From: a virus | Lineage: Duplodnaviria > Heunggongvirae > Uroviricota > Caudoviricetes | DNA length: 64,000 nt | Virus record (IMG/VR): IMGVR_UViG_3300049044_000033 | Span: 158,796 to 222,795 of that record | Strand: one strand, 5' to 3' | In this document: in pieces, positions 27,001-30,000 of the stretch | How positions within the stretch are numbered: position 1 is the first letter of the stretch | Layout of the letters: each line of letters starts with the position of its first letter | Program-made: the position numbers

Positions 27001-30000
27001 ACACCTAAGTGCTGAAAATCCTCGATAAGCTTTTGGTATCCCCTGTAGGAGTCGAACCCACGTTAACAAGGTTAGAACTTGTCGTGCTACCGTAACACTT
27101 AGGAGATATTTTATCTATATAGACAGTTTCAATATTATTGCATTAATTCTATTACCCTTAATAGCAATAAAGAACCGACCGTCTTTTTCTTGTCCGAAAC
27201 AAAAAGGTATTTCAGCAAGGTCAAGATAGACAATCAATCTATCCATCATATCCTTTTGACTGTCTGTGATCCATTCTCCTCCGGGCATCCCCCAGGGGCC
27301 ATCTTTGATTATACCCTGGACCAATTCCGAAAAATACACAGGTATGTATCCTTCAGGGATTATTAGGTCATAAGACAATAGAACAGGAAAATGTTTCCAA
27401 GACCTACGAGTTTTACTTAAATGAAGATTGAATCTTCGGTTAAATTCGATTCTAAATTCCGGAGCCGATTCGCACATAATAGATATTTAACAGACTGTTG
27501 CTAGTTTGTCTATATTGCAGGGGTAGTAGGAATCGAACCCACAAAGACTGGTTTGGAGCCAGCCATGATACCATTTCATCATACCCCTATGGTAAATTCC
27601 CGGAGATTTTCACTCCGACTAACCGCTCGATGCGATCGTGCTCGGCGGGTTAGAGCCCTCCTCCTTACACTAGGAATTTAGGAGGCCCAGAACGAATTGA
27701 ACGTTCACTACTGGCTATTCACACCAGCTTGCTACCACTACAACACAGGCCCGTCCACGTGCTGGGAATCGAACCCAGATCCTCTGGGTGGAACCCAGTA
27801 TGCTAAACCTAACATCATTAGTGGATGGTGGGTGAGTATGGAGTCGAACCATTCCCGTGAGGCGCGGTTTTACAGACCGCTTGCTAGAACCGCTAGCTTT
27901 ACCCACCCATGTGTATTAGAGGACGCCGAGGGAATCGAACCCTTTAACGAAGGCTTAAAAGGCCCTTGCCGTCCCAGACGACTTTCGTTTCAACGTCCAT
28001 GTTGAGTCAGGGTGAAGGGACTCGAACCCCCACGATGTCCTCCTTCCAAAGGAGACAGCTTACCAATTAGCTCACACCCTGATGTGACTTTGTTGGTCGT
28101 TCTACCAAGATTCGAACTTGGATCTGCCGATTATCAGTCGGATGCACTACCATTGTGCTATAGAACGAAGTTGATGAGCAAGTGTTGAGCAGGACCGTTT
28201 ACTAGCCACCGCGACCAGACCCATAAAGTGGATCTGCTGGGAGTCGAACCCAGATCGTTTGATTCAAAGTCAAAGATAACCCTATTCTATCGGCTCATCG
28301 GTGCCTGTGGTGGGGGTCGAACCCACGCTGGATGCGTTCTGAACGCATTGCCTCTACCTTTGGGCTACACAGGCATGTTGTGTGGTGCTCCACCTGGGAC
28401 TCGAACCCAGACCTATACGGTTTTTGAATCCGCTGCCTCTTCCAATTGGGCTAGTAGAGCATCGGGCATATATGCCCTTTGGTGCTCGGAGAGGGGGTCG
28501 AACCCTCGCTGGATACGTCCTCAACGTATTGCCTCTACCTTTGGGCTACCCGAGCATTACGAGGCGTCAATATTAACGACCTTTACTCTTACCTCCCGGA
28601 ACGGTTATGCGGGCGGCCTCGTATCTGTGCTCCTAAGAGGAATCGAACCTCTGCTCCATCCGTACCAAGGATGTGTGCTACCATTATCACTATAGGAGCA
28701 TGTTGATTGTGTCAACGCCTGACTATGAACTCTTTACAATTAGCCGAGTTCGTAATCCAAACAATGCGGTCTCTCGAAATCTCTTCCTCGAAGACCTCAG
28801 CCTTAGCTTTCTTTTCATCGTTGGATTCTTTATTCCACTTGCTATCTCGCATCAAGTCTGCCTTCAAGTTATCACCGTCAGTGATATGTTGGCGTGCCTT
28901 GTTGTAGATATTGTAATATTCAGGCATCTCTTTGTTGCGGACATAATAACGTCCACCAAACTTCAAAAAGCCAGTCGCTTCATACTTTGCGACCAACTTG
29001 TCGATCTCTTCCTCAGGCGTTTCCGGCTTGAGAAGTGATTTCCATTCCAATCCGTAACGCAAACCGGCGAAGAGCTCAGCAGTTCGTTTGTCAGAGGACC
29101 AAGAATGCAGGATGCCTTTTTCCCACGACTTGAAGGAGTCATCTTTAATGATGCCACGGTACAATGTGATCGTCTCTGGCAGCATCTGTCTAATTGGCTC
29201 GAACGCTGTGTGTATTTCCTGAGCAACCTCATCATTGGCCGCGATATGCTGCTCTAGAGCACCACCAGTCCAATTAGCAGTTTCCCAGTGGTCAATAGCC
29301 GACTTTGCGTCATGGCTTAATGCTTGGTAGGCTTTCTTTGCCATACCAAAGACATCTGACTGTGGGGCTCGTTCTAGGATCTCACTGTAGCGCATAATCC
29401 TATTTATGTAGCTGGTGCGGGGGTCGAACCCGCGCTTGATGCGTCCTAAGCGCATTGCCTCTACCATTGGGCTAACCAGCCATGGCGGAAAGCTAGGTAC
29501 TCGAAACCTAAGCCTTGCGGCTCGCACTCCTTAGCAGGGAGGCCCAGCACCTAGCTGGTCAACTTTCCATTGGCCGGTCTCTCCCTGGTGTCACGCCATT
29601 ATGAAGAGCTCTTCCGGCTTACGAGTTGCTAGCGTCGCAGAGCTCGTGAATTACTTTTTGGCGACCTTGACGGGGATCGAACCCGCCTCACTCCGTAGAC
29701 AGCGGAGCAGCCTCACCAGATGCTTCCAAGGCCATTTAGTCTAATGGGCAAGTGTTGCCGAGGATGTTTTTCCTGCTCTACCAACTGAGCTATCTCCCCG
29801 TAAGTGTGAGTGGGGAGAGTTGGATTCGAACCAACGACACGGAGCGTTTCAAGCGATAACCCTTGACTATCGGCCCATTTGACTGTGGAGCATATGGGAA
29901 TCGAACCCATTCTTCCGCGTTGCAAGCGCAGAGTCTAAACCCATTAGATGCCCCATTGGTTCTCTGCTCTCAGAGTGTCAAGCCTGATCTGGCGGCTTTC

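What the first reader, a model, noticed from the sequence alone, without database searches (positions are those of the whole stretch)
28173..28299. Permuted tRNA-Gln(TTG) broken before the anticodon stem (nt 26/27)
The whole anticodon arm lies in the 3' piece, while the other copies break at about 27-28/29, 28/29, 29/30, 30/31 and 34/35. Variable break points with a fixed clamp suggest several independent capture events, for example insertion of a circular tRNA precursor into the clamp, and a mechanism blind to tRNA position.
Basis: partly seen in the sequence, partly recalled or inferred. Interest (0 to 1): 0.72.

Follow-up and report, generated by a model that had tools for sequence, protein, structure and literature searches.

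The report
Phage Y RNA with tRNA-like module
The "permuted tRNA-Gln held by a clamp" is one of eleven Y RNAs of a 462-kb phage: small RNAs whose paired ends match the docking site for the ring protein Ro60, which the phage also encodes, and whose middle imitates a tRNA, so it is not a tRNA gene waiting to be spliced.

Summary
The layout at 28173-28299 (minus strand) is real. It reads: 5' clamp arm, a 5-bp/7-nt anticodon-like hairpin (loop CUUUGAA), T arm, a 7-bp acceptor stem capped by a 6-nt loop, a D-loop remnant, 3' clamp arm.

The clamp is the stem of a Y RNA. It aligns with the nematode sbRNA (Y RNA) consensus. A sister copy matches Rfam YrlA end to end, though below threshold. The phage encodes a Ro60 protein (TROVE + vWA_Ro60). 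In 5 of 5 related genomes with a Ro60 gene, one clamp copy lies just upstream of it.

This copy is not a usable tRNA-Gln:
- The 3' strand of its D stem is missing.
- ARAGORN rejects every re-joined version.
- Its ortholog in a 465-kb relative keeps every helix, with 4 compensatory double changes, yet reads UGA instead of UUG.
- No splicing endonuclease or RtcB is encoded.

The 3' piece supplies 5, 4, 3, 2 or 0 bp of the anticodon-like stem among paralogs, and the number is constant among orthologs. The tRNA bodies differ (Pro-like, class II), so several DNA-level acquisitions are plausible. Nothing supports splicing or capture of a circular RNA.

Verdict: a new variant of a known kind (YrlA-type Y RNAs). 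An earlier report of this scan on this same genome reached the same reading.

The parts
28173..28299 (-). Whole Y RNA (127 nt), from the first to the last base of the closing stem
   Evidence: It lies 0-2 nt after tRNA-Leu(CAG) and 5 nt before tRNA-Ile(GAU).
28293..28299 (-). Closing stem P1, 5' strand (GAUGAGC)
   Evidence: Pairs with 28173-28179. In 39 family members P1 is 94.9% paired, and 5 of its 9 pairs show changes on both sides.
28287..28294 (-). GCCGAUAG: the Ro60-contact motif (GNCGAAN0-1G of YrlA, with one mismatch), including the bulged C at 28292. G28291 and A28290 pair with U28181 and U28180.
   Evidence: Motif definition from PMC4201824. The columns are invariant or nearly invariant. 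It aligns with GGUCCGGA of the sbRNA consensus in a sister copy.
28279..28284 (-). Helix P2, 5' strand (UAGGGU)
   Evidence: Pairs with 28190-28195. The ortholog shows A-U to U-A and U.G to U-A. GGG is invariant in the family.
28275..28278 (-). UAUC, the end of the invariant GGGUUAUC (the YUAY of YrlA)
   Evidence: YUAY is described in PMC4201824. The same UGGGUUAUC occurs in the sbRNA consensus.
28258..28274 (-). Anticodon-arm-like hairpin: 5-bp stem and 7-nt loop CUUUGAA. The 'anticodon' UUG is at 28265-28267.
   Evidence: The loop reads CUUGAAA (UGA) in the ortholog, with an identical stem.
28237..28253 (-). T arm (CUGGG UUCGACU CCCAG), preceded by a 4-nt variable-like CGAU at 28254-28257
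   Evidence: Rfam tRNA and permuted-tmRNA alignments. Two double compensatory changes in the ortholog.
28216..28236 (-). Acceptor-like stem: 7 bp (CAGAUCC/GGGUCUG) with discriminator A, capped by CUUUAU. No CCA is encoded.
   Evidence: In the ortholog one change is double compensatory and one is U-A to U.G.
28196..28215 (-). D-loop remnant (GUCGCGGUGGCUAGUAAACG). It keeps the GG of a D loop but lacks the 3' strand of the D stem.
   Evidence: Alignment with the 31556-31681 type shows a 5-nt deletion. The remnant lies within a 27-nt block that is identical in the ortholog.
28190..28195 (-). Helix P2, 3' strand (GUCCUG)
28173..28189 (-). 3' clamp arm: CUCAACACUU plus the P1 3' strand GCUCAUC
   Evidence: The ACUUG columns are nearly invariant. 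They align with ACCAACUUGACC of the sbRNA consensus in a sister copy.
28300..28374 (-). tRNA-Leu(CAG) immediately upstream. Its 3' processing would free the 5' end of the Y RNA.
   Evidence: The processing role is inferred.
28094..28167 (-). tRNA-Ile(GAU) 5 nt downstream. RNase P cleavage at its 5' end would free the 3' end of the Y RNA.
   Evidence: The processing role is inferred.
13425..13563 (-). Paralog. The Y stem replaces the anticodon loop (the canonical YrlA layout).
   Evidence: Rfam sbRNA RF01656 at 39 bits, over its threshold, and YrlA at 31.9 bits. Compensatory changes at 27:43 and 31:39 in orthologs.
16155..16302 (-). Paralog with a class II (13-nt variable arm) tRNA-like body
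16318..16459 (-). Paralog with the junction at 29/30 and loop AUGUCAA
   Evidence: Pair 30:40 goes from C-G to G-C in orthologs.
18615..18675 (-). Mini Y RNA (clamp only)
   Evidence: Model R1 59.6 bits. sbRNA alignment.
23974..24036 (-). Mini Y RNA (clamp only)
   Evidence: Model R1 63.6 bits.
25001..25095 (-). Y RNA with a hairpin and T arm only
   Evidence: Model R1 39 bits. Sequence.
29744..29878 (-). Paralog with the junction at 29/30. Re-joined, it reads as tRNA-Phe(GAA)-like.
   Evidence: YrlA 39.3 bits, model positions 1-114 of 114. ARAGORN on the re-joined form.
31022..31169 (-). Paralog with a tRNA-Pro-like body (C1-G72, A73, encoded CCA)
   Evidence: Its three nearest neighbours are all tRNA-Pro. 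CCA.
31556..31681 (-). Paralog with the junction at 27/28, loop CUUGAAA and an intact D arm
   Evidence: (41.5 bits).

Best explanation
The element is a phage-encoded Y RNA of the YrlA type, one of eleven in this genome.

Inferred: it is transcribed within the tRNA array. Its ends are freed by the enzymes that process the flanking tRNA-Leu and tRNA-Ile.

Shown by sequence and covariation: the two ends pair into the conserved Y RNA stem. This consists of P1, a bulged C, G.U and A-U pairs, the GNCGA motif and GGGUUAUC, plus ACUUG on the 3' strand.

Inferred from homology: this stem docks onto the phage's own Ro60 (TROVE + vWA) ring.

Shown: the middle folds into a tRNA look-alike with an anticodon-arm-like hairpin, a T arm, a capped 7-bp acceptor stem and a D-loop remnant. 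The Y stem enters at the hinge between the D region and the anticodon-like arm.

Inferred from other Ro60/Y RNA systems: the tRNA-like module is the effector end. It either tethers Ro60 to a protein that recognises tRNA shape (an exoribonuclease such as PNPase, or a tRNA-processing or tRNA-cleaving enzyme), or it gates access to the Ro60 channel.

It is not cut and re-joined into a decoding tRNA.

Inferred: the different junction positions among paralogs reflect different, ancient origins or remodelling of the tRNA-derived module at the DNA level.
For: 1. Clamp identity.
- A clamp-only sister copy aligns along its whole length with the Rfam sbRNA (nematode Y RNA) consensus: GGNCCGGA...UGGGUUAUC...CCCA...ACCAACUUG.
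- Copy 13425-13563 passes that family's threshold.
- Copy 29744-29878 matches YrlA RF02553 at model positions 1-114 of 114, 39.3 bits, E 9e-8.
- The motif, the YUAY and the order V, T, capped acceptor, D are the published YrlA description (PMC4201824).

2. Partner protein.
- The phage encodes a 573-aa protein with TROVE (E 2e-44) and vWA_Ro60 (E 1e-56) domains.
- All four complete relatives that carry the clamp also encode TROVE.
- In all five genomes with a TROVE gene, one clamp copy lies about 0.5-1.6 kb upstream of it on the same strand.

3. Structure.
- Clamp covariation across 39 members beats all 500 shuffles and every slid control.
- Against the ortholog in the 465-kb relative, the 6 pairs that changed all stay paired. 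Four of them changed on both sides.

4. Not a decoding tRNA.
- The anticodon triplet differs between orthologs here (UUG/UGA) and in two other lineages (UAG/UGG, GUC/AUC).
- The 3' strand of the D stem is deleted.
- ARAGORN rejects all re-joined forms.
- A normal tRNA-Gln(UUG) exists at 23529-23602.
- No tRNA-splicing endonuclease and no RtcB are encoded.

5. Bacterial MAGs carry the same clamp as a pair of one clamp-only RNA and one tRNA-like RNA, as with YrlB and YrlA.
Against: - This copy gives no YrlA hit even at E 10. It lies about 121 kb from the Ro60 gene, not within the 4 kb typical of published YrlA genes.
- Its motif is GCCGAUAG, one mismatch from GNCGAAN0-1G.
- The comparative structure scores -24.7 kcal/mol, or -32.3 with extra pairs, against an MFE of -40.2 that does not form P2. 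In this copy P2 has three G.U pairs.
- Ro60 binding, expression and RNA ends were not observed.
- The alignment used for clamp covariation was fitted to the model.
- A retained anticodon-arm-like hairpin with U at loop position 2 and a purine at position 6 in all 8 distinct loop sequences (with my parse for one of them) is not part of the published YrlA description. It hints at a function that needs an anticodon-loop shape.
Confidence: 0.88

Rival explanations
1. It is a genuine circularly permuted tRNA-Gln gene. The clamp brings the two outer ends together, an endonuclease removes it, a ligase joins 26 to 27, and RNase P plus 3' trimming open the acceptor cap. The product is a decoding tRNA, as in the red alga Cyanidioschyzon merolae.
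For: - The order 3' part, short linker, 5' part, with a pairing acceptor stem.
- Several sister copies give a full cloverleaf when re-joined.
- The phage encodes an Rnl2-family RNA ligase and a CCA-adding enzyme. Junctions inside the anticodon stem would be nicks in a duplex, the substrate Rnl2-type ligases prefer (this preference is from general knowledge).
Against: - The flanks are a Y RNA stem, not a bulge-helix-bulge motif.
- No tRNA-splicing endonuclease or RtcB is encoded.
- This copy lacks a D stem and no tRNA is found after re-joining.
- The anticodon is not conserved between orthologs.
- A normal tRNA-Gln(UUG) is present.
- Clamp-only and non-tRNA copies of the same clamp exist.
Confidence: 0.03
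2. It is a two-piece tRNA mimic with an open acceptor end. RNase P cuts at the 5' side of G1, and the 3' end is trimmed and given CCA, as shown for Mycobacterium smegmatis YrlA. The two halves stay held by the Y stem. The RNA then acts as a chargeable or enzyme-trapping tRNA decoy, for example against host anticodon nucleases, with or without Ro60.
For: - A 7-bp acceptor stem is the determinant named for RNase P cleavage of M. smegmatis YrlA, which is also CCA-tailed in vivo (PMC4201824).
- 9 of 22 family cargos encode CCA directly after the discriminator.
- The phage has its own CCA-adding enzyme.
- The hairpin loops keep U at position 2 and a purine at position 6.
Against: - This copy has no encoded CCA, G at position 8 and no D stem.
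- The anticodon triplet drifts between orthologs, which argues against recognition of one specific anticodon.
- No expression data are available.
- This is an extension of the Y RNA reading, not an alternative to it.
Confidence: 0.06
3. It is a decaying duplicate: a Y RNA paralog or tRNA remnant that is no longer functional and is carried along in the tRNA array.
For: Degenerate D arm, weak P2, no CCA, and no family hit for this copy.
Against: The ortholog is 86% identical. All 32 modelled pairs are kept in both genomes, 4 pairs changed on both sides, and a 27-nt block is invariant. That is the pattern of purifying selection on structure.
Confidence: 0.03

Closest known systems
YrlA (Y RNA-like A, Rfam RF02553) of bacteria and mycobacteriophages, bound by Rsr/Ro60 (Chen et al. 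2014, PMC4201824)
   Same: - The 5' and 3' ends pair.
- A GNCGAAN0-1G-type motif on the 5' strand is followed by YUAY.
- The tRNA-like domain runs in the order (V hairpin), T arm, capped acceptor stem, D region.
- A Ro60 gene is in the genome, with one copy of the RNA beside it.
- A companion clamp-only RNA exists, like YrlB.
   Different: - Scores stay below the Rfam threshold (at most 39 bits against 69), and this copy gives none.
- Both strands of the Ro60-binding helix are conserved, as in Deinococcus and animal Y RNAs. In Salmonella and M. smegmatis only the 5' strand is recognisable.
- Ten of the eleven copies sit in the tRNA array 118-138 kb from the Ro60 gene.
- Part or all of an anticodon-like arm is kept as a side branch, whereas the Y stem simply replaces it in YrlA.
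- This copy has lost the D stem.
Animal Y RNAs and nematode stem-bulge RNAs (Rfam RF01656 ceN72-3_ceN74-2)
   Same: The conserved stem sequence is nearly the same: GGNCCGGA...UGGGUUAUC on the 5' side and CCCA...ACCAACUUG on the 3' side, with a bulged C.
   Different: The animal RNAs have no tRNA-like module. The phage copies insert one into the loop. Whether the similarity reflects shared descent or constraint from Ro60 is not known.
Thermus phage phiLo Ro60 with Yrl1/Yrl2 (PMC12135203)
   Same: A phage-encoded Ro60 with phage-encoded Y-like RNAs that carry a CGAA motif. The complex binds host PNPase in vitro.
   Different: phiLo has two Yrls next to the gene, and no tRNA-like cargo is described in the passages I read. 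Here there are eleven, most of them tRNA-like and inside a tRNA array.
Circularly permuted tRNA genes of Cyanidioschyzon merolae and some other algae and archaea
   Same: The 3' part lies upstream of the 5' part, the acceptor ends are joined by a short linker, and the break is in or near the anticodon arm.
   Different: Those genes have a bulge-helix-bulge motif at the outer ends, which is cut by the tRNA-splicing endonuclease and ligated. Here the outer ends are a Y RNA stem, no such endonuclease is encoded, and this copy cannot form a full cloverleaf.
Two-piece (permuted) tmRNA
   Same: A tRNA-like domain is built from a permuted gene. Rfam's permuted-tmRNA model aligns with the T arm, acceptor and linker here (21.1 bits).
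   Different: There is no mRNA-like reading frame or pseudoknots, and the score is far below the 47-bit threshold.

Membership tests
YrlA-type Y RNA | 5' and 3' ends pair into a stem that carries GNCGAAN0-1G on the 5' strand | tested here: met
   P1 is 7 bp. The motif is GCCGAUAG, one mismatch (U for the second A). 4 of the 11 copies match exactly.
YrlA-type Y RNA | tRNA-like domain in the order (V), T arm, capped acceptor stem-loop, D arm | tested here: inconclusive
   The hairpin, T arm and capped 7-bp acceptor are present and supported by compensatory changes. The D arm is reduced to a loop remnant without a stem.
YrlA-type Y RNA | Score at or above the Rfam RF02553 gathering threshold (69 bits) | tested here: not met
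   No hit for this copy at E up to 10. The best sister copy scores 39.3 bits over the full model. The model was built from bacterial and mycobacteriophage sequences.
YrlA-type Y RNA | Encoded with a Ro60/Rsr ortholog, usually within 4 kb on the same strand | tested here: inconclusive
   Ro60 is encoded, and one clamp copy lies directly upstream of it in 5 of 5 genomes. This copy, however, is about 121 kb away, on the same strand.
YrlA-type Y RNA | Bound by Ro60/Rsr | not testable with these tools
   Needs pull-down or gel shift.
Animal/nematode Y RNA (sbRNA) stem | Conserved bulged helix: GGUCCGA-type 5' strand, UGGGUUAUC and CUUG(A)CC 3' strand | tested here: met
   Alignment of a clamp-only sister copy to RF01656. 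Copy 13425-13563 scores over the threshold. This copy shares the same invariant columns.
Circularly permuted tRNA gene (C. merolae type) | 3' half upstream of the 5' half, with acceptor strands that pair | tested here: met
Circularly permuted tRNA gene (C. merolae type) | Re-joined sequence folds into a complete cloverleaf recognised as a tRNA | tested here: not met
   ARAGORN finds nothing in any of the junction trimmings tried for this copy. The 3' strand of the D stem is absent.
Circularly permuted tRNA gene (C. merolae type) | Bulge-helix-bulge motif at the outer ends and a tRNA-splicing endonuclease with a ligase | tested here: not met
   The outer ends form the Y RNA stem. PF01974 and RtcB are absent from the complete phage genome. 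The host was not examined; that bacteria lack this endonuclease is general knowledge.
Circularly permuted tRNA gene (C. merolae type) | Anticodon conserved among orthologs | tested here: not met
   UUG here against UGA in the 465-kb relative. UAG/UGG and GUC/AUC in two other lineages.

The most novel reading that the evidence does not exclude
The huge phage keeps a panel of Y RNAs whose effector modules were each rebuilt from a different tRNA (Pro-like, class II, Asp/Glu-like, Phe-like, and this D-less one). After RNase P cutting and CCA addition they would act as Ro60-tethered, two-piece tRNA decoys or sensors. These would engage host enzymes that cleave or modify tRNAs during infection. This would link Ro60 to tRNA-directed defence and counter-defence, and it would show directly how the tRNA-like domain of Y RNAs arose.
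Probability: 0.12. Interest if true: 0.8.

Novelty: new variant of a known kind. Interest (0 to 1): 0.45.

Why it matters
It removes a false lead: there is no new splicing or tRNA-capture ribozyme here.

It also shows something not described in the Y RNA papers I could read. A phage carries eleven Y RNA genes, ten of them set among its tRNA genes. Their tRNA-like modules are far more complete than in the published YrlA description, with anticodon-like arms and, in some copies, an encoded CCA. The modules stem from different tRNAs and are attached to the Ro60-binding stem at different, evolutionarily stable positions.

This gives concrete material for two open questions:
- How did Y RNAs acquire their tRNA mimicry?
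- What does the tRNA-like end recruit?

It also warns annotators. tRNA finders make false calls on these loci: ARAGORN's tRNA-Ser at 31612-31688 and the Rfam tRNA hit at 28237-28291.

Tried and rejected
- Small self-cleaving ribozyme or new splicing element as the clamp. I considered this first, from the conserved flanks. I rejected it once the clamp aligned with Y RNA and sbRNA consensus sequences and a Ro60 gene was found.
- Recent copy of one of the phage's own tRNAs. Rejected: identities of 0.66-0.73 equal the background between unrelated tRNAs.
- Brute-force re-joining with ARAGORN. This gave many ambiguous anticodon calls for sister copies and nothing for this copy (the first three runs failed on parsing).
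- Assigning each cargo to a tRNA family by nearest neighbours. Only the Pro-like lineage gave a consistent answer. This copy and most others were ambiguous.
- The clamp-only covariance model R1 finds clamp-only copies strongly but misses or scores low most tRNA-loaded copies, including this one.
- The MAFFT alignment of six loaded copies was not structurally consistent in the hairpin and acceptor columns. I therefore counted pairs only for the ortholog pair.
- Search for further orthologs with the invariant 18-mer. Only the 465-kb relative has it.
- The pattern scan of bacterial genomes is dominated by chance matches. Only about 7 of some 120 loci pass the 3'-arm filter convincingly as Y RNAs.
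- Two Y RNA reviews (PMC10870794, PMC6047535) are not held.
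Full report
**Setting.** The window is bases 158796-222795 of a complete 462,455-bp phage genome with terminal repeats. It holds a very large minus-strand tRNA array (55 ARAGORN calls) and a GOLLD RNA.

**What is at 28173-28299.** Read on the minus strand, the 127-nt element runs as follows:
- GAUGAGC, the 5' strand of the closing stem P1
- a bulged C
- GA
- the rest of a GCCGAUAG motif
- UAGGGU, the 5' strand of helix P2
- UAUC
- a hairpin UUUGA-CUUUGAA-UCAAA
- CGAU
- a T arm CUGGG-UUCGACU-CCCAG
- CAGAUCC plus A, the acceptor 3' strand and discriminator
- CUUUAU
- GGGUCUG, the acceptor 5' strand
- a 20-nt segment GUCGCGGUGGCUAGUAAACG
- GUCCUG, the 3' strand of P2
- CUCAACACUU
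- GCUCAUC, the 3' strand of P1

There is a tRNA 3' part, a short linker and a tRNA 5' part, framed by two conserved arms, with the whole anticodon-like arm in the upstream piece. The element starts directly after tRNA-Leu(CAG) and ends 5 nt before tRNA-Ile(GAU).

**The clamp is repeated.** The same two arms frame ten elements on the minus strand of the window. An eleventh lies just upstream of a gene elsewhere in the genome.
- Seven carry a tRNA-like body.
- One carries only a hairpin and a T arm.
- Two are clamp only (61-63 nt).
- The eleventh carries a non-tRNA insert.

**The clamp is a Y RNA stem.** I recognised the arms as resembling Y RNAs and then tested the idea.
- Rfam gives a full-length hit of the sister copy 29744-29878 to YrlA (RF02553, model positions 1-114 of 114, 39.3 bits, E 9e-8, threshold 69).
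- Copy 13425-13563 passes the threshold of RF01656, a nematode stem-bulge RNA family. From general knowledge, these are Y RNA homologs.
- The clamp-only copy 18615-18675 aligns with that family's consensus nearly base for base: GGNCCGGA...UGGGUUAUC...CCCA...ACCAACUUG.
- Chen et al. 2014 (PMC4201824) define YrlA by a GNCGAAN0-1G motif near the 5' end, a YUAY, and a tRNA-like domain in the order V, T arm, capped acceptor stem-loop, D arm. That is exactly this 'permuted' order.
- They also show that M. smegmatis YrlA, which has a 7-bp acceptor stem, is cut by RNase P and receives CCA.

**The partner protein is present.**
- The genome encodes a 573-aa protein with TROVE (E 2e-44) and Ro60-type vWA (E 1e-56) domains.
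- The eleventh clamp copy lies directly upstream of it on the same strand.
- Five other huge-phage records carry the clamp: 26 copies, all on one strand, with 0 hits for the reversed control pattern.
- All four complete records among them encode TROVE, and in each a clamp copy lies about 0.5-1.6 kb upstream of it.
- No tRNA-splicing endonuclease and no RtcB are encoded. An Rnl2-family ligase and a CCA-adding enzyme are.

**Structure of the clamp.** I built a covariance model from 22 clamp-only members. It found 39 members in the window and in viral loci.
- On that alignment 86.8% of cells pair, against 70.8% in shuffles.
- Ten of 15 pairs change on both sides.
- The covariation score is 0.476 against 0.19 in shuffles (0 of 500 reach it) and at most 0.20 with slid partners.
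- The bulged C, the G.U pair and the A-U pair are nearly invariant.
- Caveat: this alignment was fitted to the model.

**This copy compared with its ortholog.** A 465-kb relative has the ortholog. The two are 86% identical.
- All 32 modelled pairs are standard pairs in both.
- The six pairs that differ all stay paired. Four changed on both sides: one in P2, two in the T stem and one in the acceptor stem.
- The loop changes from CUUUGAA to CUUGAAA, so the 'anticodon' changes from UUG to UGA. The discriminator changes from A to G.
- A 27-nt block from the acceptor 5' strand to P2 is identical.

Aligned with the 31556-31681 type, both orthologs lack the 5 nt that form the 3' strand of the D stem. 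ARAGORN finds no tRNA in any re-joined version of this copy. Its body is not closer to the phage's tRNA-Gln than to other tRNAs. A normal tRNA-Gln(UUG) exists at 23529-23602.

The element is therefore under selection as a structure, but not as a Gln-decoding tRNA.

One point against my model: nearest-neighbour thermodynamics prefers another fold (-40.2 kcal/mol) to the comparative one (-24.7, or -32.3 with extra pairs). However, one of the MFE's extra helices (GCGG with CUGC) uses bases that differ in the ortholog, where that helix cannot form.

**Variable junctions.** The number of anticodon-stem base pairs supplied by the upstream piece alone varies among lineages (orthologs):
- 5 bp in this copy
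- 4 bp in the 31556-31681 lineage
- 3 bp in the 31022-31169 lineage
- 2 bp in the 16318-16459 lineage and in 29744-29878
- 0 bp in the 13425-13563 and 16155-16302 lineages, where the Y stem replaces the loop as in canonical YrlA

The number is the same in every ortholog I found in four or five huge phages. In the split stems the downstream piece supplies the missing bases. Orthologs show compensatory changes: 30:40 C-G to G-C, and 27:43 and 31:39 in the loop-replaced lineage.

The junctions, however, are old and stable.

**Origin of the bodies.**
- The 31022-31169 lineage has C1-G72, A73 and an encoded CCA. Its three nearest neighbours among 251 reference tRNAs are all tRNA-Pro. One ortholog still reads UGG.
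- The 16155-16302 lineage has a 13-nt class II variable arm.
- Other assignments were ambiguous.
- CCA follows the discriminator in 9 of 22 cargos and in 26 of 61 normal tRNAs of this phage.
- The linkers (5-21 nt) are in the range of the array's intergenic spacers.

I infer that the bodies came from tRNA genes more than once. A DNA segment spanning two tandem copies of a tRNA gene would give the permuted order without any circular RNA. This is an inference.

A viral locus (L113) has the same clamp around a D arm, anticodon arm and T arm in normal order. So the point of attachment is not restricted to the anticodon arm.

**Wider distribution.** After filtering for the 3' arm I kept 61 distinct candidate elements, the window's own copies included. 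They comprise 27 short elements, nearly all clamp-only, and 34 longer ones, of which about two dozen carry a T arm with a paired acceptor stem. A few bacterial MAGs have the same clamp as a pair of one clamp-only and one tRNA-like RNA.

**Mechanism.** By homology with Ro60/Y RNA systems (PMC4201824; PMC12135203, where a phage Ro60 with its Y-like RNAs binds host PNPase), the stem docks on Ro60. The tRNA-like end serves as tether or gate. All 8 distinct hairpin loops in the family keep U at position 2 and a purine at position 6 (with my parse for one). This suggests that an anticodon-loop shape matters, but not a particular anticodon. Binding, expression and processing were not observed here.

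**Earlier notes of this scan.** After I had formed this reading I looked up the scan's notes. An earlier follow-up on this same genome (e1-5442258) reached the same Y RNA conclusion for the clamp. I tested that reading independently here.

Noticed in passing
window 31612-31688 (-) and 28237-28291 (-): False tRNA calls on Y RNAs. ARAGORN's tRNA-Ser(tga) at 31612-31688 is made of the Y RNA's 5' clamp arm plus the upstream tRNA-like piece. The Rfam tRNA hit at 28237-28291 uses the clamp arm as a D arm.
   Followed up: yes
G000:C1 about 310370-310535 (-), outside the window; L001:3790-3945 (-): The eleventh Y RNA lies directly upstream of the Ro60 gene. It has the same P1/P2 clamp (GAGAGCCGAUGUUGGUGGGUUAUC ... 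GGUCCACCACAAUACUUGCUCUC) but a non-tRNA insert of about 115 nt. Similar copies lie beside the Ro60 genes of two relatives (L129, L146).
   Followed up: partly
L113:3641-3774 (-): A viral Y RNA with the same clamp whose insert is a D arm, an anticodon arm (CAU) and a T arm in normal, unpermuted order, with no acceptor stem. ARAGORN does not call it a tRNA.
   Followed up: partly
window 27034-27107 (-); also two further loci in the genome: Three tRNAs with anticodon CUA, which ARAGORN labels Pyl. These are candidate amber suppressors, which may point to TAG recoding in part of this phage's genes.
   Followed up: no
window 4703-5152 (-): GOLLD RNA (Rfam RF02032, 171 bits, over the threshold) near the tRNA array.
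   Followed up: no
G000:C1:329034-329519 (+) and 246524-246889 (-), outside the window: An Rnl2-family RNA ligase (PF09414, E 1e-21) and a CCA-adding/poly(A) polymerase family enzyme (PF01743, E 3e-35) are encoded. RtcB and tRNA-splicing endonuclease are absent.
   Followed up: partly
window 28196-28222 (-): A 27-nt block (CUGGUCGCGGUGGCUAGUAAACGGUCC) is identical in the 465-kb relative, although neighbouring stems have changed. It has no obvious pairing partner, and what it binds is unexplained.
   Followed up: partly
window 24940-24997 (-): Directly after the Y RNA at 25001-25095 comes a sequence that begins like a tRNA (GGGGUAUCCUCUAGCGGUAAGAG...) but is called by neither ARAGORN nor Rfam.
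   Followed up: no
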